From positions 19,490 through 83,489 of the forward strand of contig PNAG01000028.1 in NCBI GenBank assembly GCA_003169845.1: 64,000 nucleotides of DNA, read 5' to 3'. The notes beneath the pieces are model-generated. The model ran no database searches, was not told the DNA's origin, and was given only the letters and a program-made list of their open reading frames with translations. Shown one piece after another: positions 1-9,190 of the stretch (its first letter is position 1; each line of letters begins with the position of its first letter). A program made the position numbers and the translations under genes. Source of the stretch: Candidatus Dormiibacterota bacterium. Lineage in GTDB: Bacteria; Chloroflexota; Dormibacteria; Dormibacterales; Dormibacteraceae.

Positions 1-54
1 GCCCGAGGTACTCGATCCAGTGAAGCGCCGCGAGGACGAGATCCGGACTGCCGC

Positions 55-1098
55 TCACGATGCGGCGGCGATGATCCCCCCGCCGAGGACGCGGCTGCCC
101 GAGTACAGAACCGCGGCCTGGCCAGGCGCCGCGCCGAGGAACGGCTCGTCCAGCGACAACCGTCCGGCCCGGTACTCGCCTGGAATTGCCGCCGCGTGGT
201 AGCGAAGCCTCGCCTCGCACCTCACGGCTTCGGGAACCGACCCGTCGACGAAGGTCATGTCCCTCAACTCGATCTCGCGGACGCCAAGGTCCTCTTTGCG
301 GCCGACGACAAGCCGGTTGGCGGGCGCGTCGACTCGCAACACGTACCAGGGCCCGGCTTCGGTGAGGTCTCCGAAGCCGCTCCGCTGACCGACCGTGTAG
401 AGCGGCGTCCCGCGGTGAGTACCGAGCTCGCGCCCGCTCGAATCCACGACCGCGCCCGCGTGGACGGGAAGACGGTCGGCGAGGTAGCGGGCCGTCTGGC
501 CGCGAGGTACGAAGCAGATCTCCTGGCTCTCGGCCTTGTCCGCGACCGGCAGACCAAACTCGCGAGCGTGCTCGCGCACCTCAGGCTTGGTCATTCCGCC
601 GAGCGGGAAGAGGATGTGCCCGAGGCGTTCGCGGTCGAGGTGATAGAGCATGTAGGACTGGTCCTTGGCCGCATCCACCGCGGTGTGCAGCTCGGTCCCG
701 TTGACGATTCGCGCGTAGTGGCCGGTGGCCAGGCGGTCGAACCCGAGCGCGAGCACGCGGCCGAGCATCAGATCGAAACGCACGAAGGCGTTGCAGCGCA
801 CGCACGGGTTGGGGGTGCGACCCTCGAGGTAGTCGCGATGAAACGGTTCGATGACCCGCTCGCCGAACTCCTTCTCGAGGTTCCAGCAGTAATAAGGAAT
901 GCCAAGGAGCGAGGCGACCCGCCGCGCGTCCTCGACGGCGTTGAGCGAGCAGCACCCACCGTGTCGCGAAGCCTCCTCTGAATCGTCGCGCGGCCACTGC
1001 TGCAGCGTGACGCCGATCACCTCGTGGCCCTGCGCCTGAAGCAACGCGGCCGCAAGCGACGAGTCCACGCCACCCGACATCGCCACGGCGACTCTCAT
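55..1098 (-). CDS. mnmA: tRNA-specific 2-thiouridylase MnmA
   Basis: 347 aa ORF with an N-terminal PP-loop (AMSGGVDSS) and a conserved MnmA core. ATGA stop/start overlap with the upstream gene. Confidence 0.9.
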
Positions 1099-2312
1099 CG
1101 GCGGCCCTCAACGACGTGCCGGGCGACCACCTCGGCGTCCTCGCCTACGCCATAGAGGATCGACGACTTGTTCTTCCGCATCCAGTGCACGCCCATGAAG
1201 TACAAGCCTGGCACGGTCGAGCAGCCATCGGTCTGCACCGGGAAACCCATCTCGTCGAAGACCGGGAAGCGCACCCAACCGTAGTCCGGCCGGTAGCCGC
1301 TCGTCCAGATCACGGTTCCGATGCCATCCCGCGCAATGTCCAGCTCGGTGCGGGTCTTGATCCGGAGCGGAGGCGGCATCTCCAGCGCCGGCGGTTTGGT
1401 TCCGCTGGCCGCGCACGAGGCCTCGATGAACTTCATGAGATCCGCCAGCCTCGCATCCCCGAAATCGACGCTGGCGGCAAGGTCGTCGGCGAAATGGAGC
1501 GTCGAGCCCTCAGCGCCGGCATACCTCCCAAGCAGCTCAACACCCATCGCGTTCAGCACGCGGAAATTCAGGTCCCGCCCGCCGTCATGCCCGGTGGCCT
1601 GCGGGTTGCCAAGGAGCCTCGCCATCGGCGAGGGAAGCTTGTCCGGTGTGCGGTCCATGTAGCCCGACTCCGCCATCCACCACAGAATGTCGTGACACTC
1701 CAGCCGGCGCGGCACCCACACGCAGCGGCCGCAAGCGAGGAACACCTTGCGGCCGGAATGGTGAAGCTCTTCCGCCAGCTGGCACCCGGTCTGGCCGCTT
1801 CCGACGACGAGGACCGCACCTGCAGGCAGGGCGGCGGGATTGGCGTATTCCTCAGCGAAGAGCTGCACCACTCCGCTGGAAACTGATTCCGCGCCCGCGG
1901 GCCGGTGCGGGCGCTGGTAGGCGCCACTCGCCACCACTACATTGCGAGCCTTGATCTTGCCGGAGGCAAGCGAGAGGAGAAACCCACCGCCGTCCGCCTC
2001 CAGCTTCGTGACAGCGCTGTTTTCTTCCACAGGCGCGTTGAAAGAGTCCGCCCATGACTGGAAGTAATCGACGAGCTCGGCCAAGGACATGAACCCCTCA
2101 GGATCGGGCCCGGCGTACATCGCGCCGGGCACCTGGACCGTCCAGTTGGGGGTGACCAGGCAGAAGGAGTCCCAGCGCCGCGAGCGCCAGGTCTCGGCGA
2201 CGCGGCCGGAGTCGAGCACAACGTGGTCGATCTTGGCCTGGGTTAGGTACCAGCTGGTAGCGAGCCCGGCCTGCCCGGCACCAATGATCGCGACGTCGAC
2301 GCTGCTTTTCAT
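1095..2312 (-). CDS. FAD/NAD(P)-binding oxidoreductase (flavin monooxygenase/CzcO-like)
   Basis: Two dinucleotide-binding motifs ([11 protein letters not shown] and VVGSGQTG). Start placed at MKSS (2312); the longest ORF runs to 2381. Confidence 0.7.
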
Positions 2313-2408
2313 GCCGGCGGCAATCGTAATGGGAGCCAAGCTCCCAGCCAGTGAAGCTGAGCGACGTCCAGGCCGGCGCACGCCTCCACATAAGACGGCG
2401 TTAGAGCG

Positions 2409-2648
2409 CTATTCGACCAGGTCGCCCTCGGCCGGCTCCACCTTCACCCCTCGCGACTCGAGGTAGGCCACACCACGATCGAGCTCCTCGGCCTCGCCCG
2501 TGATCTCGAGCAGCACCCAGCCCTGGTCGCGTGTGACATCGGCGCGCCGGATGTTGGTCACCAGCGCGAACTGCTTGCCGAGCTGGTAAATGACCGGTTC
2601 CTTGACCATGGCGGAACCAAAGATCAGCTTCAAACGCCTCCGCCCCAT
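2409..2648 (-). CDS. NIL-domain protein (MetN C-terminal-like small ligand-binding domain)
   Basis: 79 aa. The pattern EPVIYQLGKQFALVTNIRRADV..GWVLLEITG..LDRGVAYLESRGVKVE matches stand-alone NIL/ferredoxin-like folds. Confidence 0.6.
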   Translation of the reverse strand: MGRRRLKLIFGSAMVKEPVIYQLGKQFALVTNIRRADVTRDQGWVLLEITGEAEELDRGVAYLESRGVKVEPAEGDLVE

Positions 2649-2658
2649 AAAGCGGAGT

Positions 2659-2940
2659 CTAAGCCCGGCGACCCCCGGCCACTGCCGGCACGATCGAGAT
2701 CTCGTCCTTCTCGTGAACCTTCACCGCCAGGCCCGCACCGAGCCGCACGTCCTCGTCGTTCAGGTACACGTTGACAAACTGACGCAGCTCGCCATTTTCA
2801 TCGAGCAGGCGGTCCTTGAAGCCCGGGTAGCGGGCGTCGAGTGCGTCGATGGCGTTGGCAAGGTCGGTCGCTTCGACATCGACCGTGGTCTGGCCATCCG
2901 ACAGACGGCGCAGCGGACCAGGGATTCGAAATTGCGGCAT
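2659..2940 (-). CDS. MoaD/ThiS-family sulfur-carrier protein with a C-terminal GG followed by RRA
   Basis: 93 aa beta-grasp pattern (..VNVYLNDEDV....EKDEISIVPAVAGG-RRA). The start abuts the thrC-like stop (TAAATG). Confidence 0.7.
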   Translation of the reverse strand: MPQFRIPGPLRRLSDGQTTVDVEATDLANAIDALDARYPGFKDRLLDENGELRQFVNVYLNDEDVRLGAGLAVKVHEKDEISIVPAVAGGRRA

Positions 2941-4179
2941 TTAGATTTTCACCACTTCGCGAAACGACTTTAACGTGGGTTCTATTTCCACGCGGCGCGA
3001 ATGACCGTTGGCCGTGGCGAGCACATCTGCCGTCTTCAGGCCGTGCCCGGTGACATAGGCGACCACGACCTCGTCGCCATTCCAGCGTCCCGCCCTGGCC
3101 AGCTTGGCCAGCACACTGATGGTCACCCCGCCGGCGGTCTCCGTGAAGATTCCCTCGGTGCGGGCGAGCAGCCGGATGCCCGCGACGATCTCCTCCTCGG
3201 TGACCGCCTCGACCACGCCACCCGTCTCCAGGGCGATCCGGTTCACGTACATGCCGTCAGACGGGTTGCCGATCGCGATCGAGCGGGCGATGGTGTTCGG
3301 CTTGACCGGCAGCACCCGCTCGGGCGTGTCGGACTTGAACGCGTTGTAGACCGGGGCGCAGCCAAGCGCCTGGGCGCCGGTGAACTTTGGAACACGGTCT
3401 TCGCGGACCAGCCCGTACTCCACCAACTCCCTCGCGGCCTGGCGGTGCCGCACGAACTGGCAGCCGCTGGCGATCGGAATGATGATCTCGTCCGGCAGCT
3501 TCCACCCGAGCTGCTCCGCGGTCTCGAACGTCAGGGTCTTGGAGCCTTCGGCGTAGAAGGGCCTGATGTTGATGTTGCAGAACGCCCAGGGAGTCGACTC
3601 GACGAGCTGGCTGCACAACCGGTTGACCTCGTCGTAGTTGCCCCGCACCGCGACCACGTTGGGGTCGAAGACGCCAATGCTCACGACTTTCGCCGGCTCG
3701 AGGTCCACCGGGATGAACACAAAGCATTCGAGCCCTGCGCGCGCCGCATAAGCCGCGACCGCGTTGGCGAGGTTTCCAGTGGACGCGCACGCGATCGTCT
3801 CGAAGCCATGGGCGCGAGCCCAGCTGATGGCGACCGAGACCACCCGGTCCTTGAAGGAGTTGGTCGGGTTCATGCTGTCGTTTTTCAGGTAGAGGTTTCG
3901 CAGGCCGAGCTCGGCGCCCAGCCGCTCCGCCTTGACCAGAGGCGTCATGCCCTCGCCAAGCGTCACCACCGGCACCGAATCCTCGACGGGAAGCAGGTCA
4001 CGGTATCGCCACATCGACTTGGGCCCTTTCTCGATCCGGTCCCGGCTGACGACCTTCTTCAGCGCCGCCTGGTCGTAAACGACGTCAAGCGGCCCAAAGC
4101 ACATCTCGCAGACATGCGTCGCCTGCAACTCATATTCGGCGCCGCACTCGCGGCAACGCATCCCGAGAAGTTTGGACAC
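2941..4179 (-). CDS. thrC: Threonine synthase family PLP enzyme with N-terminal Cys4 zinc ribbon
   Basis: 412 aa with CRECG..CEMC ribbon, PLP-lysine motif NPTNSFKDR, and fold-type II PLP core. Confidence 0.85.
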   Translation of the reverse strand: MSKLLGMRCRECGAEYELQATHVCEMCFGPLDVVYDQAALKKVVSRDRIEKGPKSMWRYRDLLPVEDSVPVVTLGEGMTPLVKAERLGAELGLRNLYLKNDSMNPTNSFKDRVVSVAISWARAHGFETIACASTGNLANAVAAYAARAGLECFVFIPVDLEPAKVVSIGVFDPNVVAVRGNYDEVNRLCSQLVESTPWAFCNINIRPFYAEGSKTLTFETAEQLGWKLPDEIIIPIASGCQFVRHRQAARELVEYGLVREDRVPKFTGAQALGCAPVYNAFKSDTPERVLPVKPNTIARSIAIGNPSDGMYVNRIALETGGVVEAVTEEEIVAGIRLLARTEGIFTETAGGVTISVLAKLARAGRWNGDEVVVAYVTGHGLKTADVLATANGHSRRVEIEPTLKSFREVVKI

Positions 4180-4211
4180 GAGCCTCAGTTTAGGACGGGG
4201 GCTCTTGGTAG

Positions 4212-5369
4212 TTAGTCCGGTCCGCGAGCCACCGCTCCGAATGTGACCATCGGCGGGATGGTCAGCATGCGGCCGTCATCGGCACGAACGATCTGCCAGT
4301 TGCCCTCGTGCACCATCCAGTGATGCCGGTAGCAAAGCAAAGTCAGGTTGGGCGGTTCATTGGTTCCGCCATGGATCCAGTGCCGGATGTGGTGTCCCGA
4401 GGCCCAGCTCGCCGGGCGCTCACAGCCCGGCCAGGTACAGCCCCGGTCACGGACATTGAGCGCCTTGCGCGCCGGTCCCGAGATCGTCCGCTTGGCCCGC
4501 CCGACATCGATCACCACCGACCTGGAGTCGAGAATGATGCGAGTGACCGAGGCGTCGCAGGCCAGCCGCTCCACGGTCTTGGAGGAGACAGGCATAGAGG
4601 AGAACTCCATGTCCGCCGCCGGCGCGCCAGGGAGTCCGAGCAGAGTCTCGAGGGAGGCGGTGACCTGGAGATGAGTGCGCTGCGATCCCTGCTGTGGGAT
4701 CAGCCCGGAGTCAAGTGCGTGCAGGGAGAGATCGACCAGGGCATCTGCCATCCGCTTCTCCCGACACCGATCGTCGTGCTTACCTGAGCGGCGCACCAGC
4801 GGCTCCAGCGCGGTCCGGATCGAAGCCCCGCCGACGGGATCGAAAACGCCATTGATCCAGACCGCCCCATCCTCGCCGGTGCTGATCCAGAGCTTGCGGT
4901 TCTCCACCAGGTCCGCCTGCTCGGCCTCGTAACCCTTGCGGTCGGCGGAGTGCCGGTAGTGGTTGCAGAGGTAATAGAACTTGCCCGGCGAGTTCTCCCG
5001 CGCCTTGGCGAGCAGCAAAGCCTCATCGAATTTGCTCCCCACGGCTCTCGCCGTCCTGGCCACCGCCTTCAGATGAGCAAAGCCGATCTCGCCACTGGAA
5101 ACCGCCTGGGTGCTTTCCGGCACCCGCTCCAGGCTTTCACCGACCGCGATCAGGTCGGCGGCGGCAGTGCTGGTCTGGTGGCAGTTGAAGCGAATCCAGT
5201 CGATCGGGCTGGCGTAGCCCCATTTGTCGTACTCATCGGTGGCGGCAAAGCGAGCCGCCACGCGGGAAGCGCGGATGAGCAACAGATCCACCTGATGAAG
5301 CAGCTGCTCGAGCTCTTCACCGGCCTCCGCACCGGGCGTTCGAGGCTGCACGTCTTGCGTCGCGAGCAT
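4212..5369 (-). CDS. DUF222-type HNH endonuclease (13E12-repeat-like family), paralog 1
   Basis: 385 aa. C-terminal HNH/Zn motif CTWPGCERP..HHIRHW..GG.T...NLTLLCYRHHWMVHEG; N-terminal DUF222-like helical region. Confidence 0.8.
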   Translation of the reverse strand: MLATQDVQPRTPGAEAGEELEQLLHQVDLLLIRASRVAARFAATDEYDKWGYASPIDWIRFNCHQTSTAAADLIAVGESLERVPESTQAVSSGEIGFAHLKAVARTARAVGSKFDEALLLAKARENSPGKFYYLCNHYRHSADRKGYEAEQADLVENRKLWISTGEDGAVWINGVFDPVGGASIRTALEPLVRRSGKHDDRCREKRMADALVDLSLHALDSGLIPQQGSQRTHLQVTASLETLLGLPGAPAADMEFSSMPVSSKTVERLACDASVTRIILDSRSVVIDVGRAKRTISGPARKALNVRDRGCTWPGCERPASWASGHHIRHWIHGGTNEPPNLTLLCYRHHWMVHEGNWQIVRADDGRMLTIPPMVTFGAVARGPD

Positions 5370-5375
5370 GAAGAC

Positions 5376-5404
5376 AGACTACCAAACAAACGTTCGATAG
5401 TCAA
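5376..5404 (-). promoter_or_regulatory. Putative promoter with embedded SOS-box-like site for HNH paralog 1
   Basis: Minus strand reads TTGACT-17 nt-TAGTCT-6 nt-ATG. The spacer contains CGAACGTTTGTTTGG (GAAC-N4-GTTT at 5384-5395). Confidence 0.5.
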
Positions 5405-5511
5405 TAGATTTGATCGTAAAAATGGCAAAAACGCACCCCTTTCTCCGACCAACCTCCCACCCTCCTGACCACCGCCCCCGAAACCCCTTTTCCGAGTCCC
5501 TTTCTAGCCCC

Positions 5512-6255
5512 CTAACGCCGCCCGTCCCGAACCTCCACCCACCACTCCAACCTCTCCCCCGCCCCAAGCAGCGGCGCCGGCTCCGAAGAATCCGGCCGGT
5601 CACCCCCGCCCGTCGCCGGCTCGACCGCCACCTGCTGGTACCCGCCCAGGTCCCCGTTGCACACCCACACCCCGACGTACGGAGTCACCGAAGCGTCCCA
5701 CGCGAACTCGATCGCGGCTCCCGACCGCCAGCTCAGCCGCACCCGATCAATCGAGCCGGGCGGCAGAAAAACCTTCGTGCTCGTCCCGTCCGCCAGCTGC
5801 GCGAGCGCGACACCGCCCGGCACCCCGATCTCCATCCCACTCTCGAACCTGAAAAGCGGATGGGCGCACCAATACGCATGAAGCGGCTGATGACCCCGGT
5901 TCGTGTAGACGTACGAGACCCGGACACGGTCTTCAAAAAGCTCGAGACGCCGCGACAGCTCCCATGGCACGAGCCGTCCCGCGCAGCTCATCACGACCGA
6001 GCTCGAGGTCGCAGCCCCCACCGCCCACGGCGCCCTCCACGCCTCCCCGTGATCGGGAAGCGATTCCGTCGCATCGACGGTCGGAACCATCTCGTCCCAT
6101 CCCCACGCCCCACCCTCGACGAACCCAACAGCCTGCGGATCGTCGACCCCAATCCCCTGCTCGAGCAGCTCCTCGCCGGCCAATCGCAACGAGGTGATCC
6201 GCCCACCCCGCTCGGGCCGGACCTCGAGCTCCCAGGAACCTCCGAGCAACTTCAA
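5512..6255 (-). CDS. Aldose 1-epimerase/galactose mutarotase-like protein
   Basis: The pattern GGRITSL..GEELL...WGWDEMVPTVD...HGE.W and HAYWCAHPLF resembles the mutarotase-like fold. Start is uncertain: TTG at 6255 was chosen to avoid overlap with the divergent gene, and the longest ORF runs to 6363. Confidence 0.5.
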   Translation of the reverse strand: MKLLGGSWELEVRPERGGRITSLRLAGEELLEQGIGVDDPQAVGFVEGGAWGWDEMVPTVDATESLPDHGEAWRAPWAVGAATSSSVVMSCAGRLVPWELSRRLELFEDRVRVSYVYTNRGHQPLHAYWCAHPLFRFESGMEIGVPGGVALAQLADGTSTKVFLPPGSIDRVRLSWRSGAAIEFAWDASVTPYVGVWVCNGDLGGYQQVAVEPATGGGDRPDSSEPAPLLGAGERLEWWVEVRDGRR

Positions 6256-6282
6256 GGCGCGTGGATCGTAGGCTCTGAGAGG

Positions 6283-7194
6283 ATGCGGTTGGTTGCCCTC
6301 GTCATGTCCGCTTGCCTTCTCGCCGCCTGCGCGCCCAAGGCCACGGCCCAAGCACCGAACCACACCCCCAGCCCGAGCCCGCTTCCCACCCCGATCGCCA
6401 GCCCCACTCCCGACCCATCACCGGCCGCGACGCCCGCCCACGTCTTCCTGATCATCATGGAGAACCGCAGCTACAGCCAGGCCATCTCCAGCGGCTACGT
6501 GTCCCAGCTGGCTGCCCAGTACGCGATCGCCACCGACTACCACGGCGTCTCTCATCCGAGCCTGCCCAACTACCTGGCCCTCACCTCGGGCACGACCTGG
6601 GGCATCGCCGATGACCTCTTTCACGCACTGCCCGCCGGCGGCCTCGGCGCGCAGCTGACCACCGCCGGAATCGATTGGCGCGCCTACATGGAGGGCATGA
6701 CCAAGGGGTGCTTCAACAGCCCGTACCCCTACGCGTTGAAGCACAACCCGTTCGCGTACTACGGAAGCGCCTGCCCGTCGCAGATCGTCCCCTTCACGCG
6801 GTTCGCGACCGACATGGCAGGCACCGCGCCGCAGTTCGCGTGGATCACGCCGGACCTCTGTCATGACGGCCACGACTGCTCGAGCACCATCGCCGACGCG
6901 TGGCTTTCCCAGACTGTGCCGACCATCCTCAACTCCACCGCATGGCAGGACAACGGGATGCTGGTCATCACCTGGGACGAAGGCGAGGACAGCGCCAATT
7001 CCGTCCTCACCCTGATCATCCGTCCCAACCCCATCGTGCACCGCAGCTCCAAGCCCTACGACCACTACTCGCTGCTCGCGACGATCGAGGACCAGCTGGG
7101 GGTCGCGAGGCTCGGCCAGGCGGCGCAAGCCACCCCGATGACCGACCTGATGGCAACCCAGGCGCCGGCGCCCCTCCGAAGCAAGAGTTCCTAA
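6283..7194 (+). CDS. Secreted phosphoesterase-family lipoprotein (acid phosphatase/phospholipase C-like)
   Basis: Start at MRLVALVMSACLLAAC (lipobox), followed by a Pro/Ser/Thr linker, then IIMENRSY and HPSLPNYLAL motifs. The upstream 291 codons of ORF 5410..7194 look non-coding. Confidence 0.7.
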   Translation: MRLVALVMSACLLAACAPKATAQAPNHTPSPSPLPTPIASPTPDPSPAATPAHVFLIIMENRSYSQAISSGYVSQLAAQYAIATDYHGVSHPSLPNYLALTSGTTWGIADDLFHALPAGGLGAQLTTAGIDWRAYMEGMTKGCFNSPYPYALKHNPFAYYGSACPSQIVPFTRFATDMAGTAPQFAWITPDLCHDGHDCSSTIADAWLSQTVPTILNSTAWQDNGMLVITWDEGEDSANSVLTLIIRPNPIVHRSSKPYDHYSLLATIEDQLGVARLGQAAQATPMTDLMATQAPAPLRSKSS

Positions 7195-8294
7195 GCGGTG
7201 ACCGTCTGCTTCCAGTGCGTGATCGAGTCGAGGAACTCGAGGTCGACCTCGACGCCAAGCCCTGGTCCGGCCGGCACGTCCAACCGGCCCTCGCGAAGGA
7301 CAAAAGCCGCGGTGATGTCGCGGTGGTAGTAGCGGTCAGACGCCGAGGTGTCGCCGGGTAGGGTGAAGTTCGGCATCGCGGCCATCGCCACGTTGCCGGC
7401 GCGGCCGATCCCCGTCTCCAGCATCCCGCCCATCCACACGGGCAACCCGTACTCGGCGCAGAGATCGTGGATCCGGCGAGCCTCCAGGTAGCCCCCGACG
7501 CGGCCCGGTTTGATGTTGATGATCCGGCACGCCCCGAGCTGGATCGCGTCCGCCGCCGCCTGCGCCGAGGTGATCGACTCGTCGAGGCAGATCGGCGTCC
7601 GCACCAGGGTCGCCAGCTCAGCATGAGCGAGCACTTGCTCCTCGGGGAGCGGCTGTTCGATCAGCAGCAGGTCGAACGGGTCCAGCTCCGCGAGATGGGC
7701 GGCGTCCGACAGCGAGTAAGCCGTGTTGGCGTCCACCTGCAGGGGCACGCTGCCGAACCGCTCGCGCACCGCCCGCACCGGCTCCACGTCCCAGCCCGGC
7801 TTGATCTTCAGCTTGATCCGCCGGTAGCCCTGTTCGACGTAGTCGCCCACCGTCTCCAGCAGCTCCGGGATCGACTTGTGGATGCCGACCGAGACGCCAG
7901 AGTCGACGGCGGGGCGCACCGCGCCGAAGTACGCGGCGAACGATTCGCCTCGGGCGCGCAGCTGCGCGTCGAGGATCGCCATCTCGATCGCGGACTTCGC
8001 CATCTGGTGCCCGTGCACCGGCCGCAGCAGCCGCCCCACGTCCTCGGCCTCGATGCGCGCTTGGTCCATCAGCCGCGGGAGCAGGTGATGGACCAGGACG
8101 TGCTGGCAGCCGTCCACGTACTCCGACGAGTAGGTCGGTTCTTCGCCCGCCACGCACTCACCCCAACCCTCGCCGCCAGTGGTGATCGCCTTCAACAACA
8201 GGATGTCGCGCTCGGTCTGCACGCCGAACGAGGTCTCGAAAGGCGCGACCAGCGACAGGTGGATGCGGCGCATCTCGACCGCGCGAAGCTTCAT
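7191..8294 (-). CDS. Enolase-superfamily o-succinylbenzoate synthase / N-succinylamino-acid racemase
   Basis: 367 aa with a KLKIKPGWD (KxK) motif and the metal-ligand D/E/D spacing typical of the MenC/NSAR subgroup. ATGA overlap with the upstream gene. Confidence 0.8.
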   Translation of the reverse strand: MKLRAVEMRRIHLSLVAPFETSFGVQTERDILLLKAITTGGEGWGECVAGEEPTYSSEYVDGCQHVLVHHLLPRLMDQARIEAEDVGRLLRPVHGHQMAKSAIEMAILDAQLRARGESFAAYFGAVRPAVDSGVSVGIHKSIPELLETVGDYVEQGYRRIKLKIKPGWDVEPVRAVRERFGSVPLQVDANTAYSLSDAAHLAELDPFDLLLIEQPLPEEQVLAHAELATLVRTPICLDESITSAQAAADAIQLGACRIINIKPGRVGGYLEARRIHDLCAEYGLPVWMGGMLETGIGRAGNVAMAAMPNFTLPGDTSASDRYYHRDITAAFVLREGRLDVPAGPGLGVEVDLEFLDSITHWKQTVTA

Positions 8295-9190
8295 GCGCTG
8301 AGGCTGTCCAGCCGCGCTGACTCTTCTTCCGACAGCGCGATATCAGCCGCTGCGGCGTTCTCCTCCAGCTGTCGCACGCTCGACGCGCCCGGGATAGCCA
8401 CTACGTTCGGCTTGCGGATCAGCCACGCCAGGGACACTTGCGCCGGCGTCGCACCATGCCGCGCGCCGATCTCCCGAAGGGCGGCGATCAGCGGCGCAAG
8501 ACGAGCTCGGTTTGCGGCGCTGAAGCTGCCGCGCCTGCGCCTCACCAGGTTGCTCGGCGCCGAATCCTGATACTTGCCCGAAAGCAATCCCTGCCCAAGC
8601 GGGCTGTACGCGATGATCACCCTTCCGTTCTGCTGCGCCCACGGCAGCAGCTCACGCTCCGGCCCGCGATGGACCAGGTTAAAGAGAACCTGGTTGGAGA
8701 GGACCGGACGCCCCAACGCCTCCTCCGCCTTCTTCCACGCGCCCAGGTCGTGATTGCTGACGCCCACGTGCGCGACCATCCCCCGTTCGATGAGACGTCT
8801 CATGCGGGGCATGGTGGCGCGCGGCGGGAACAGCGGACTCGGCCAGTGAAGCTGGTAGAGGTCGATGAGCTCGACGCCGAGCCGCCGCGCACTCCGGCGT
8901 GCGCGCCACTCCGTCATGAACGGAAGGCCGACCGGAAAGATCTTGGTGGCGATGAACACCTCCGACCGGTGGCCTAGGATCGCTTCGCCGACGATGCGCT
9001 CCGAGCGTCCGAACCCGTAGAACTCGGCGGTATCGACCAGGTTTATGCCCAGCTCGAGGGCGCGCCGCACGATATTGCCGGCCTCGGTGCGGTTGTACTC
9101 GGCCCCGTAACCCCATTCGGTCGAACCGAACTGCCAGGTGCCAACCCCGATCGCGGAGAGCCTGACACCACCGACCTCAACGTACTTCAT
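8291..9190 (-). CDS. Aldo/keto reductase
   Basis: AKR pattern (GVGTWQFG, DTAEFYG, hydrophobic IATK, LYQLHWP). Start at MKYVEV gives an ATGA overlap with the upstream gene. Confidence 0.85.
   Translation of the reverse strand: MKYVEVGGVRLSAIGVGTWQFGSTEWGYGAEYNRTEAGNIVRRALELGINLVDTAEFYGFGRSERIVGEAILGHRSEVFIATKIFPVGLPFMTEWRARRSARRLGVELIDLYQLHWPSPLFPPRATMPRMRRLIERGMVAHVGVSNHDLGAWKKAEEALGRPVLSNQVLFNLVHRGPERELLPWAQQNGRVIIAYSPLGQGLLSGKYQDSAPSNLVRRRRGSFSAANRARLAPLIAALREIGARHGATPAQVSLAWLIRKPNVVAIPGASSVRQLEENAAAADIALSEEESARLDSLSA

What the first reader, a model, noticed from the sequence alone, without database searches (positions are those of the whole stretch)
2409..4179. ThrC-like PLP enzyme + MoaD/ThiS-type sulfur carrier (GG-RRA tail) + NIL-domain protein: candidate protein-thiocarboxylate amino-acid pathway
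- **Gene arrangement.** A zinc-ribbon threonine-synthase-family gene abuts (TAAATG) a 93 aa beta-grasp sulfur-carrier gene. A 79 aa stand-alone NIL domain follows 10 nt later, then a flavoprotein and mnmA.
- **Carrier tail.** The carrier ends ..PAVAGG-RRA. Its diglycine is therefore masked by three residues and would need JAMM/Mec-type trimming before adenylation and thiocarboxylation. No such protease or E1-like enzyme is present in the window.
- **Known precedents.** Protein-thiocarboxylate sulfur donors are established for cysteine synthesis (CysO/CysM in M. tuberculosis) and homocysteine synthesis (HcyS/MetY in Wolinella). As I recall, a ThrC-paralog plus sulfur-carrier pair in Streptomyces has been linked to homocysteine formation from O-phosphohomoserine.
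- **NIL link to methionine.** NIL domains occur in MetN and in methanogen homocysteine-synthesis proteins.
- **Implication.** The trio may be a methionine/homocysteine module rather than (or in addition to) threonine synthase.
Basis: partly seen in the sequence, partly recalled or inferred. Interest (0 to 1): 0.6.

Follow-up and report, generated by a model that had tools for sequence, protein, structure and literature searches.

The report
MetM/MetO homocysteine genes with NIL partner
A peat-soil Dormibacteria genome labels as "threonine synthase" a gene that most likely makes the methionine precursor homocysteine with sulfur from a small carrier protein, a route published in 2024, and a small NIL protein of unproven role travels with it.

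Summary
On the minus strand lie a Zn-ribbon ThrC-like gene (2941-4179), a ThiS/MoaD-type carrier ending AVAGG-RRA (2659-2940) and a 79-aa NIL protein (2409-2648).

- **Second paralogue.** The genome has a separate canonical hom-thrC-thrB operon.
- **Pathway gap.** No metX, metA or DUF39 was found in a 94% complete genome, but a full metH is present.
- **Accessory enzymes.** One JAMM peptidase (beside cysM) and one MoeB-like E1 lie elsewhere.
- **Dedicated carrier.** MoaD and ThiS have their own loci.
- **Phylogeny.** The enzyme falls in a clade separate from canonical ThrC.
- **Clade properties.** Members are followed by this carrier in 71 of 80 loci across five phyla, and 8 of 25 tested loci carry a SAM riboswitch.

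This matches the MetM/MetO route of Streptomyces albulus (Hasebe 2024).

The extra element is the cysteine-free NIL protein, a homologue of the methionine-binding MetN C2 domain.
- It sits beside MetM/MetO in Dormibacteria, other Chloroflexota and Nitrospirota.
- It is fused behind the carrier's Gly-Gly in some lineages.
- It is missing in one same-family genome.

Its role (methionine sensor or carrier partner) is inferred. This scan has noted the same module on other DNA more than 150 times.

The parts
2941..4179 (-). MetM-like homocysteine synthase candidate: ThrC-fold PLP enzyme with an N-terminal Cys4 zinc ribbon, 412 aa
   Evidence: PF00291 at 1.3e-64 and TIGR00260 at 264 bits. It is a second paralogue beside the canonical thrC on C5. 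It sits in the MetM-like clade (SH-aLRT 99), apart from canonical ThrC (100). 22 clade-diagnostic residues separate the two clades.
2659..2940 (-). MetO/CysO-type ubiquitin-like sulfur carrier, 93 aa, ending AVAGG-RRA (Gly-Gly masked by three residues)
   Evidence: PF02597 at 7.5e-14 and SAMP1 model at 61 bits. A homologous carrier lies directly downstream of the ThrC-like gene in 71 of 80 loci. Alignment A5 shows invariant P85, A86, G89 and G90. Relatives are fused to JAMM, E1-rhodanese, CysM or NIL.
2409..2648 (-). Stand-alone NIL-domain protein, 79 aa, no cysteine; homologue of the MetN C2 (ACT-like) domain
   Evidence: PF09383 at 3e-15. It is the only NIL gene in the genome. A profile search hits E. 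coli MetN C2 (3dhx) at E 5.6e-9. The AF2 model has pLDDT 90 and best matches 3dhw/3tui at TM 0.81-0.84. It is conserved beside MetM/MetO in three phyla and fused to the carrier in others.
1095..2381 (-). Flavin-dependent oxidoreductase (MSMEG_0569-like); a lineage-specific insertion between NIL and mnmA, not part of the conserved module
   Evidence: TIGR04046 at 378 bits, below its cut-off of 498. Among the 80 loci it is present only in the closest relative, L023. Deeper Dormibacteria run NIL-mnmA or carrier-mnmA directly.
55..1098 (-). mnmA (tRNA 2-thiouridine-34 synthase), the conserved downstream neighbour of carrier/NIL within Dormibacteria
   Evidence: NF001138 at 389 bits. It is adjacent in L023, L025, L026, G086, G095 and G053 only, all Dormibacteria.

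Best explanation
**What it is.** The ThrC-like enzyme and the carrier are a MetM/MetO-type, protein-thiocarboxylate-dependent homocysteine synthase.

**Inferred pathway.**
1. Homoserine kinase, encoded in the canonical thr operon, makes O-phosphohomoserine.
2. The carrier is made with a masked tail (GG-RRA). The genome's single JAMM peptidase trims it.
3. The single MoeB-like E1 adenylates the carrier.
4. Because that E1 has no rhodanese domain, a free-standing rhodanese or sulfide converts the carrier to the thiocarboxylate.
5. The ThrC-like enzyme replaces the phosphate of O-phosphohomoserine with this sulfur. Homocysteine is released, probably through a carrier-homocysteine adduct.
6. MetH methylates homocysteine to methionine.

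**Possible second use of the carrier.** It is the only non-thiamine, non-molybdopterin carrier in the genome, and the JAMM gene sits beside cysM. The same carrier therefore probably also serves CysM for cysteine synthesis.

**The NIL protein.** It is a small ACT-like ligand-binding protein. It most likely senses methionine or a related metabolite and tunes the carrier/MetM step.

**Shown versus inferred.**
- Shown here: gene content, paralogy, clade membership, synteny, SAM riboswitches in clade members, fusions and fold.
- Inferred: all chemistry, the shared use of the carrier, and the NIL function. I put about 0.85 on the homocysteine route and about 0.4 on NIL as a methionine or related-ligand sensor.
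For: **Paralogy.**
- A canonical hom-thrC-thrB-ask operon lies on C5.
- All 12 other genomes examined also hold exactly two ThrC-family genes. One is a Zn-ribbon type scoring 476-910 bits to ours. The other is a short canonical type scoring 177-218 bits.

**Tree.** Canonical ThrCs form one clade (SH-aLRT 100). The window protein lies in the other (99), together with cyanobacterial, actinobacterial (including Micromonosporaceae P0246), Nitrospirota and Chloroflexota proteins.

**Literature anchor.**
- A Microcystis member of this kind is 51.6% identical to S. albulus MetM, and its neighbour is 47% identical to MetO (PMC12172450). Our protein is 54-57% identical to cyanobacterial members.
- GapMind 2026 warns that MetM is often mis-annotated as threonine synthase.

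**Methionine link.** SAM-I riboswitches (56-76 bits) lie directly upstream of the ThrC-like gene in 8 of 25 tested loci.

**Carrier linkage.** The carrier is adjacent in 71 of 80 loci.

**Pathway gap.** In a 94% complete genome there is no real metX (best hit 29.6 bits), no metA and no HcyBio/DUF39. There is a single PF01053 enzyme and a full metH at 1596 bits.

**Accessory enzymes.** JAMM lies beside cysM. The E1 is 283 aa and lacks a rhodanese domain. Free-standing rhodaneses are present.

**Carrier is not MoaD or ThiS**.

**Full cassette elsewhere.** Nitrospirota loci read CysM-E1-MetM-MetO-NIL-E1-JAMM.

**NIL.**
- It shows MetN C2 homology and fold.
- It has no cysteine.
- Carrier-GG-NIL fusions exist.
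- It is adjacent to MetM in 22 of 56 MetM-positive genomes of the phylum sample.
Against: - **No biochemistry.** Nothing has been tested for this protein or any Dormibacteria homologue.
- **No direct comparison.** The S. albulus MetM and MetO sequences could not be fetched, so orthology to the characterised enzyme is indirect.
- **Database call.** The protein still passes NCBIfam's thrC equivalog cut-off (264 against 167 bits).
- **No local riboswitch.** No SAM riboswitch or any Rfam hit lies upstream here.
- **Cyanobacterial homologue.** The one studied showed threonine-deaminase activity, and methionine levels did not rise despite high ThrC expression (PMC12172450).
- **Alternative route.** The lone PF01053 enzyme could in principle support a plant-like route from O-phosphohomoserine through cystathionine.
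- **NIL is dispensable in some genomes.** It is absent from a same-family genome that keeps MetM-carrier-mnmA (G086). It was not found in any cyanobacterial locus.
- **NIL is not an alternative to the riboswitch.** It coexists with a SAM riboswitch in L099.
Confidence: 0.8

Rival explanations
1. NIL is not a metabolite sensor. It is a structural partner or cap of the sulfur carrier: made with it, and in some lineages fused to it behind the Gly-Gly. It would control or assist JAMM trimming, E1 activation or hand-over of the thiocarboxylate.
For: - **Fusions.** Carrier-GG-NIL fusion proteins recur (P0427-P0431 at 173 aa, and P0416). The NIL domain begins 3-5 residues after the Gly-Gly.
- **Company it keeps.** All other fusion partners of this carrier family act directly on the carrier: JAMM, E1-rhodanese and CysM.
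- **Linkage.** In Dormibacteria NIL stays with the carrier when MetM is 6 kb away (G095).
- **Masked tails.** Carrier tails beyond Gly-Gly occur in 8 of 11 loci where NIL is next to the carrier, against 4 of 63 without (Fisher 4.6e-6, not corrected for kinship).
- **Loss together.** The same-family genome that lacks NIL has a bare Gly-Gly carrier.
Against: - The domain is homologous over its whole length to a known methionine-binding regulatory domain. Sensing and binding the carrier are therefore not exclusive.
- The AF2 model of a natural fusion gives two well-folded domains but pTM 0.50 and a disordered junction. It predicts no fixed interface.
- In Chloroflexota loci NIL lies between MetM and the carrier (L074, L099).
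Confidence: 0.3
2. The carrier (with NIL) mainly serves tRNA thiolation by the neighbouring MnmA, or cysteine synthesis by CysM. Its position next to the ThrC-like gene would then be secondary.
For: - Carrier/NIL-mnmA adjacency holds across Dormibacteria: L023, L025, L026, G086, G095 and G053.
- In G095 the carrier-NIL-mnmA block is separated from MetM.
- The only JAMM lies beside cysM with no carrier of its own.
- Close carrier relatives are fused to CysM-type enzymes.
- From established knowledge: Thermus TtuB and M. tuberculosis CysO are precedents for such uses.
Against: - mnmA is a neighbour only in Dormibacteria, 3 of the 80 loci. The ThrC-like/carrier pair holds in 71 of 80 loci over five phyla.
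- MnmA-family enzymes are known to take persulfide sulfur, not thiocarboxylate (established knowledge).
- Use by CysM is compatible with the main explanation and does not replace it.
Confidence: 0.1
3. The ThrC-like gene is simply a second threonine synthase, or a threonine-metabolising isozyme, and the neighbours are unrelated.
For: - It passes the TIGR00260 equivalog cut-off and nearly reaches NF006050 (300 against 303 bits).
- The PLP lysine motif and many ThrC residues are shared.
- The Microcystis homologue showed threonine-related side activities (PMC12172450).
Against: - A canonical thrC in a thr operon already exists.
- The clade is separate and has 22 fixed differences, including around the PLP-lysine and STGN loops.
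- SAM riboswitches control clade members.
- Linkage to a sulfur carrier is near-universal.
- No alternative homocysteine route was found in the genome.
Confidence: 0.05

Closest known systems
MetM/MetO (with Mec and MoeZ) O-phospho-L-homoserine route to homocysteine, Streptomyces albulus (Hasebe et al. 2024, Appl Environ Microbiol 90:e01247-24; in GapMind 2026, PMC13759103)
   Same: - A ThrC-homologous PLP enzyme is encoded directly upstream of a ThiS/MoaD-type carrier.
- The carrier needs C-terminal maturation by a JAMM (Mec-type) peptidase and activation by an E1.
- The host lacks homoserine acyltransferases but has homoserine kinase.
- The enzyme is annotated 'threonine synthase'.
- Clade members sit behind SAM riboswitches.
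   Different: - There is no SAM riboswitch in this window.
- The E1 lacks the rhodanese domain of MoeZ.
- A conserved stand-alone NIL gene follows the carrier. It is not listed among the pathway's steps in GapMind 2026, nor linked to the pathway in any paper my searches returned.
- The host is Dormibacteria.
- Direct sequence comparison with the S. albulus proteins could not be run.
CysO-CysM-Mec (Mycobacterium tuberculosis) and HcyS-MetY-HcyD-HcyF (Wolinella succinogenes) protein-thiocarboxylate amino-acid synthesis (established knowledge)
   Same: - A ubiquitin-like carrier thiocarboxylate is the sulfur donor for a PLP enzyme.
- A JAMM peptidase is involved.
- HcyS carries a masked Gly-Gly tail.
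- In this genome the JAMM gene sits beside cysM.
   Different: The PLP enzyme here has the ThrC fold, not a CysM or MetY type. The presumed substrate is O-phosphohomoserine rather than O-phosphoserine or O-acetylhomoserine.
C2 (NIL) domain of the methionine importer ATPase MetN (E. coli; PDB 3dhw, 3dhx, 3tui)
   Same: - Homology runs over the full length (E 5.6e-9).
- The beta-alpha-beta-beta-alpha-beta fold is the same (TM 0.81-0.84, rmsd 1.1-1.5 A).
- The Asn of the N-I-L motif is kept (N32). From memory, this aligns with MetN N295, which is needed for methionine trans-inhibition.
   Different: - It is stand-alone, or fused to a sulfur carrier, rather than attached to an ABC ATPase.
- It has an invariant RRAD...GW motif where MetN has ISAQ.
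- The loop is four residues shorter.
- The ligand is unknown.
NIL-ferredoxin plus DUF39/COG1900 homocysteine synthesis of methanogens and Desulfovibrio (Rauch 2014; Price 2018, PMC5764234)
   Same: A NIL domain is associated with homocysteine biosynthesis.
   Different: There is no ferredoxin domain and no cysteine at all. No DUF39 gene was found in the genome. The substrate would be O-phosphohomoserine, not aspartate semialdehyde.

Membership tests
MetM (MetO-thiocarboxylate-dependent homocysteine synthase) | ThrC-fold PLP enzyme with the PLP-lysine motif | tested here: met
   PF00291 at 1.3e-64. S108-F-K110-D-R is conserved in both clades.
MetM (MetO-thiocarboxylate-dependent homocysteine synthase) | A paralogue distinct from the housekeeping threonine synthase | tested here: met
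   A canonical thrC sits in a hom-thrC-thrB-ask operon on C5. The tree splits the two clades at SH-aLRT 100 and 99. There are 22 fixed differences.
MetM (MetO-thiocarboxylate-dependent homocysteine synthase) | Gene directly followed by a MetO-type sulfur-carrier gene | tested here: met
   TAAATG junction. The same pairing holds in 71 of 80 loci.
MetM (MetO-thiocarboxylate-dependent homocysteine synthase) | Sequence orthology to the characterised S. albulus MetM (UniProt A0A059WBP2) | not testable with these tools
   The sequence could not be fetched. The link is indirect: 54-57% identity to cyanobacterial members, one of which is reported as 51.6% identical to S. albulus MetM (PMC12172450). 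A Micromonosporaceae homologue sits in the same clade.
MetM (MetO-thiocarboxylate-dependent homocysteine synthase) | Control by SAM (riboswitch upstream, as in S. albulus) | tested here: not met
   No Rfam hit at E<=1 in window 1-9000. The riboswitch is present upstream of 8 of 25 tested clade members in Actinomycetota and Chloroflexota. This is a feature of some members, not a defining one.
MetM (MetO-thiocarboxylate-dependent homocysteine synthase) | Converts O-phosphohomoserine plus MetO-thiocarboxylate to homocysteine | not testable with these tools
   Needs an enzyme assay.
MetO/CysO-type sulfur carrier | Beta-grasp ThiS/MoaD fold with a C-terminal Gly-Gly (free or unmaskable), plus an E1 and a JAMM peptidase in the genome | tested here: met
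   PF02597. The carrier ends AVAGG-RRA. One JAMM and one MoeB-like E1 are present. MoaD and ThiS are separate genes.
NIL domain (PF09383; MetN C2-like, ACT-like) | Sequence and fold match to the MetN C2 domain | tested here: met
   PF09383 at 56 bits. Profile against PDB gives 3dhx at E 5.6e-9. Foldseek gives 3dhw/3tui at TM 0.81-0.84.
NIL domain (PF09383; MetN C2-like, ACT-like) | Binds L-methionine | not testable with these tools
   N32 aligns with the Asn of MetN's N-I-I motif. The importance of that Asn is recalled from memory. The family-specific invariant RRAD/GW motif could mean a different ligand.
Canonical threonine synthase ThrC | Housekeeping enzyme of the thr operon, short N-terminus, ThrC-type active-site loops (SFKDRGM, STGNTSA) | tested here: not met
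   The gene is not in the thr operon and has an extra 55-residue Zn-ribbon N-terminus. Its loops read SFKDRVV and STGNLAN. It nevertheless exceeds the TIGR00260 cut-off.

The most novel reading that the evidence does not exclude
The NIL protein is a metabolite-sensing cap or partner of a ubiquitin-like sulfur carrier. In fused lineages it must be cut off at the Gly-Gly by the JAMM peptidase. In split lineages, such as this one with its vestigial GG-RRA tail, it acts in trans. Ligand binding to NIL would then gate carrier maturation or activation. That would place feedback control of methionine (and perhaps cysteine) synthesis at the level of the carrier protein rather than the enzyme or the mRNA.
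Probability: 0.15. Interest if true: 0.75.

Novelty: new variant of a known kind. Interest (0 to 1): 0.5.

Why it matters
**Annotation.** In this Dormibacteria genome, which recurs in peat metagenomes, no homoserine acyltransferase or DUF39 gene was found. The module explains how it could still make methionine. Other genomes with the same gap may be explained the same way. It also shows that "threonine synthase" calls for this clade are probably wrong. Every one of the 13 genomes checked has one canonical and one MetM-like copy.

**Biology.** The NIL protein is a recurrent component. It is not listed among the pathway's steps in GapMind 2026, and no paper my searches returned links it to MetM/MetO. 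Its natural fusions behind the carrier's Gly-Gly give a concrete, testable handle on how protein-thiocarboxylate pathways are regulated.

**Possible shared carrier.** One carrier may serve both CysM and MetM, as the Nitrospirota cassette and this genome's gene inventory suggest. If so, cysteine and methionine sulfur supply would share one control point.

Tried and rejected
- **Complex prediction.** MetM, carrier and NIL (NIL as partner) scored 0.00 in both runs, so there is no verdict.
- **Model of a natural fusion.** The AF2 model of carrier-NIL fusion P0428 has good domains (pLDDT 87) but pTM 0.50 and a disordered GG junction. It gives no information on an interface.
- **NIL as a replacement for the SAM riboswitch.** Among the non-cyanobacterial loci tested, 7 of 8 NIL-adjacent loci lack the riboswitch, and 7 of 9 others have it (Fisher 0.015, kin not independent). 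L099 has both, and cyanobacteria have neither, so this is not a rule.
- **LarE-like PP-loop enzyme as sulfur loader.** It lies next to the E1 here and overlaps NIL in Acidimicrobiia. I set this aside because the genome has LarC and a LarA-like gene, so an ordinary nickel-pincer role is enough.
- **NIL neighbours where unlinked from MetM.** In family f13 they are a polysaccharide deacetylase, a sulfatase and recF. This was uninformative.
- **The 80-aa ORF between the PF01053 gene and cysM on C26.** It is a small membrane protein, not a CysO.
- **The Hasebe 2024 paper itself** is not held.
- **RNA evidence.** No RNA holder was listed for the locus.
- **Promoter and terminator scan.** Nothing above chance.
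Full report
**1. Observation**

Three tightly packed ORFs lie on the minus strand.
- **ThrC-like protein.** 412 aa, 2941-4179. It has an N-terminal CxxC-x11-CxxC ribbon and a PALP domain (PF00291, 1.3e-64).
- **Carrier.** 93 aa, 2659-2940, ThiS/MoaD family (PF02597). Its ATG directly follows the ThrC-like TAA. It ends ...SIVPAVAGGRRA.
- **NIL protein.** 79 aa, 2409-2648, PF09383 at 3e-15. It starts 10 nt after the carrier stop.
- **Downstream.** A flavin oxidoreductase (1095-2381) and mnmA (55-1098) follow.
- **Upstream.** A DUF222/HNH gene (4212-5369) lies 32 nt from the ThrC-like start.
- **Elsewhere.** No JAMM or E1 gene lies in the window.

**2. Organism and genome inventory**

Close homologues are labelled Candidatus Dormibacteraeota/Dormibacteria. 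Near-identical DNA occurs in peat metagenomes of several studies.

The 3.69-Mb assembly is 94% complete. It contains the following.
- A canonical hom-thrC-thrB-ask operon on C5. Its thrC is 378 aa and scores 305 bits to TIGR00260.
- No real metX (best hit 29.6 bits), no metA and no HcyBio/DUF39.
- One Cys/Met-metabolism PLP enzyme (PF01053) on C26.
- A full-length metH at 1596 bits.
- The only JAMM peptidase, which lies on C26 directly after a cysM-like gene. That cluster has no carrier gene: the 80-aa ORF there is a small membrane protein.
- One MoeB/UbaA-like E1 of 283 aa without a rhodanese domain, on C11.
- Several free-standing rhodaneses.
- Two other ThiS-family genes: a MoaD-MoaE fusion, and a ThiS next to thiE.

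The window's carrier is therefore the only one left for amino-acid sulfur chemistry. The window's NIL gene is the only NIL gene in the genome.

**3. The enzyme belongs to a separate, methionine-linked ThrC clade**

- **Sampling.** A motif scan of one genome per GTDB species returned 80 loci at 53-97% identity. They come from Dormibacteria, Cyanobacteria, Acidimicrobiia and other Actinomycetota, Nitrospirota, Aquificaceae and Chloroflexota.
- **Carrier linkage.** In 71 of the 80, a homologous carrier gene lies directly downstream.
- **Two paralogues per genome.** In 12 of 12 genomes examined there are exactly two ThrC-family genes. One is a Zn-ribbon type scoring 476-910 bits to ours and aligning from residue 1-6. 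The other is a short canonical type scoring 177-218 bits and aligning from about residue 55.
- **Tree.** A maximum-likelihood tree puts the 13 canonical ThrCs in one clade (SH-aLRT 100). The window protein falls in the other (99), which also holds a Micromonosporaceae protein. Both clades roughly follow organismal phyla.
- **Diagnostic residues.** 22 positions are fixed differently in the two clades. Examples are SFKDRVV against SFKDRGM, STGNLAN against STGNTSA, and N204/R206/Y209 against S/N/R.
- **SAM control.** SAM-I riboswitches lie directly upstream of the ThrC-like gene in eight of 25 tested loci: six Actinomycetota and two Chloroflexota. This ties the clade to methionine rather than threonine.
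- **Literature.**
  - MetM/MetO of S. albulus converts O-phosphohomoserine to homocysteine with MetO-thiocarboxylate, helped by Mec and MoeZ.
  - MetM is "often misannotated" as threonine synthase (GapMind 2026).
  - A Microcystis homologue is 51.6% identical to S. albulus MetM and its neighbour 47% identical to MetO (PMC12172450).
  - I could not obtain the S. albulus sequences or the original paper. Orthology to the characterised enzyme is therefore indirect but well supported.

**4. The carrier tail**

Most carriers end in a bare Gly-Gly. Extensions occur in the window (RRA), its nearest relative (RRRA) and scattered others. A tail requires a peptidase, and the genome's single JAMM is the obvious candidate. 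GapMind lists Mec as needed for MetO maturation in Streptomyces too.

**5. The NIL protein**

- **Homology and fold.**
  - It has no cysteine, so it is neither a persulfide carrier nor an iron-sulfur protein.
  - It is homologous over its whole length to the C2 domain of MetN (3dhx, E 5.6e-9).
  - An AF2 model (pLDDT 90) superposes on 3dhw/3tui at TM 0.81-0.84. ACT domains come next.
  - The family has an invariant RRAD...GW...E..G signature.
- **Gene context by phylum**.

| Lineage | Gene order |
|---|---|
| Dormibacteria | MetM-carrier-NIL-(flavoprotein)-mnmA |
| Nitrospirota | CysM-E1-MetM-carrier-NIL-E1-JAMM |
| Chloroflexota | MetM-NIL-carrier |
| Acidimicrobiia | NIL overlaps a LarE-like gene about 3.5 kb downstream of MetM-carrier |
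| Cyanobacteria | no NIL found in the loci |

- **Phylum sample.** In an even sample of 151 genomes of the window's GTDB phylum, 56 have a MetM-like gene and 51 have a NIL hit. 38 have both, and in 22 the two are within about 400 nt. These counts include the unpublished genome G050; without it the last figure is 21.
- **Within Dormibacteria.**
  - NIL follows the carrier even when MetM is 6 kb away (G095).
  - One same-family genome has MetM-carrier(bare GG)-mnmA with no NIL (G086).
- **Fusions.**
  - Natural carrier-GG-NIL fusions exist (P0427-P0431 and P0416). NIL starts 3-5 residues after the Gly-Gly.
  - The other fusion partners of this carrier family are JAMM, E1-rhodanese and CysM. All of them handle the carrier directly.
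- **Masked tails track NIL.** Tails beyond Gly-Gly occur in 8 of 11 loci with NIL next to the carrier, against 4 of 63 without (kin are not independent).

**6. Mechanism**

- **Core route.** The best-supported reading is a MetM/MetO-type homocysteine synthase fed by O-phosphohomoserine from the thr operon. JAMM, E1 and a rhodanese or sulfide are supplied in trans, and MetH completes methionine synthesis.
- **Shared carrier.** The carrier probably also serves the C26 CysM.
- **NIL.** It is most likely a small ligand-binding regulatory protein (methionine or a related metabolite) that acts on the carrier/MetM step. A direct role as carrier partner or cap is a serious alternative and is not exclusive.
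- **Basis.** All chemistry is inferred. The complex prediction gave no verdict, and the fusion model shows no fixed interface.

**7. Comparison, novelty and earlier notes**

- **What is known and what is new.**
  - The enzyme-carrier pair is a new member (Dormibacteria) of a pathway published in 2024.
  - The NIL partner and its fusion to the carrier are not listed among the pathway's steps in GapMind 2026. No paper my searches returned links NIL to this pathway.
  - I therefore class the module as a new variant of a known kind.
- **Earlier notes in this scan.**
  - The same MetM/MetO+NIL module has been recorded on other DNA more than 150 times, including the fusion and the LarE-NIL pairing.
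  - I re-tested those points here and they held.
- **What this window adds.**
  - A whole-genome inventory.
  - The Nitrospirota full cassette.
  - The link between NIL and masked carrier tails.
  - A same-family genome that has lost NIL.

Noticed in passing
window 4212-5369 (-): A DUF222 plus HNH endonuclease gene sits 32 nt upstream of the ThrC-like start on the same strand. In the deeper Dormibacteria locus L025 the upstream ORFs have different lengths. It therefore looks like a mobile insertion that may have displaced the native promoter region.
   Followed up: no
L007:1396-3859 and L011:1381-1908 (G000 contig C26): The cluster reads: PF01053 Cys/Met PLP enzyme, 80-aa membrane ORF, cysM-like gene, then the genome's only JAMM peptidase. 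It has no carrier gene of its own. This suggests the window's carrier is shared between cysteine and homocysteine synthesis.
   Followed up: partly
L018:1249-2943 (G000 contig C11): The single MoeB/UbaA-like E1 (283 aa, no rhodanese domain) is followed 12 nt later by a LarE-family PP-loop sulfur transferase (TIGR00268, 299 bits). The genome also has LarC and a LarA-like gene, so an ordinary nickel-pincer role is possible.
   Followed up: partly
L065:9042-10216, also L044, L062, L091: In Acidimicrobiia a LarE-like gene overlaps the start of a stand-alone NIL gene by 4 nt. This lies about 3.5 kb downstream of a SAM-riboswitch-controlled MetM-carrier pair, after groEL and a chlorite-dismutase-like gene. 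In L061 a LarE-like gene follows the carrier directly.
   Followed up: partly
L081:3054-8148, also L092, L102: Nitrospirota carry a seven-gene cassette, CysM-E1-MetM-carrier-NIL-E1-JAMM, with two E1 paralogues flanking the core.
   Followed up: partly
L017:1492-1749 (G000 contig C21): The thiamine-locus ThiS appears to end ...MVGGGAT. It too would carry residues beyond Gly-Gly.
   Followed up: no
L022 (G000:C13:207392-208405): A 347-aa ORF matches only the C-terminal half of cobalamin-independent methionine synthase MetE (101 bits). It may be one of the short MetE-like methionine synthases.
   Followed up: no
window 1095-2381 (-): An MSMEG_0569-like flavin oxidoreductase is inserted between NIL and mnmA. 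Among the loci examined it occurs only here and in the nearest relative (L023). Its stop overlaps the mnmA start by 4 nt.
   Followed up: partly
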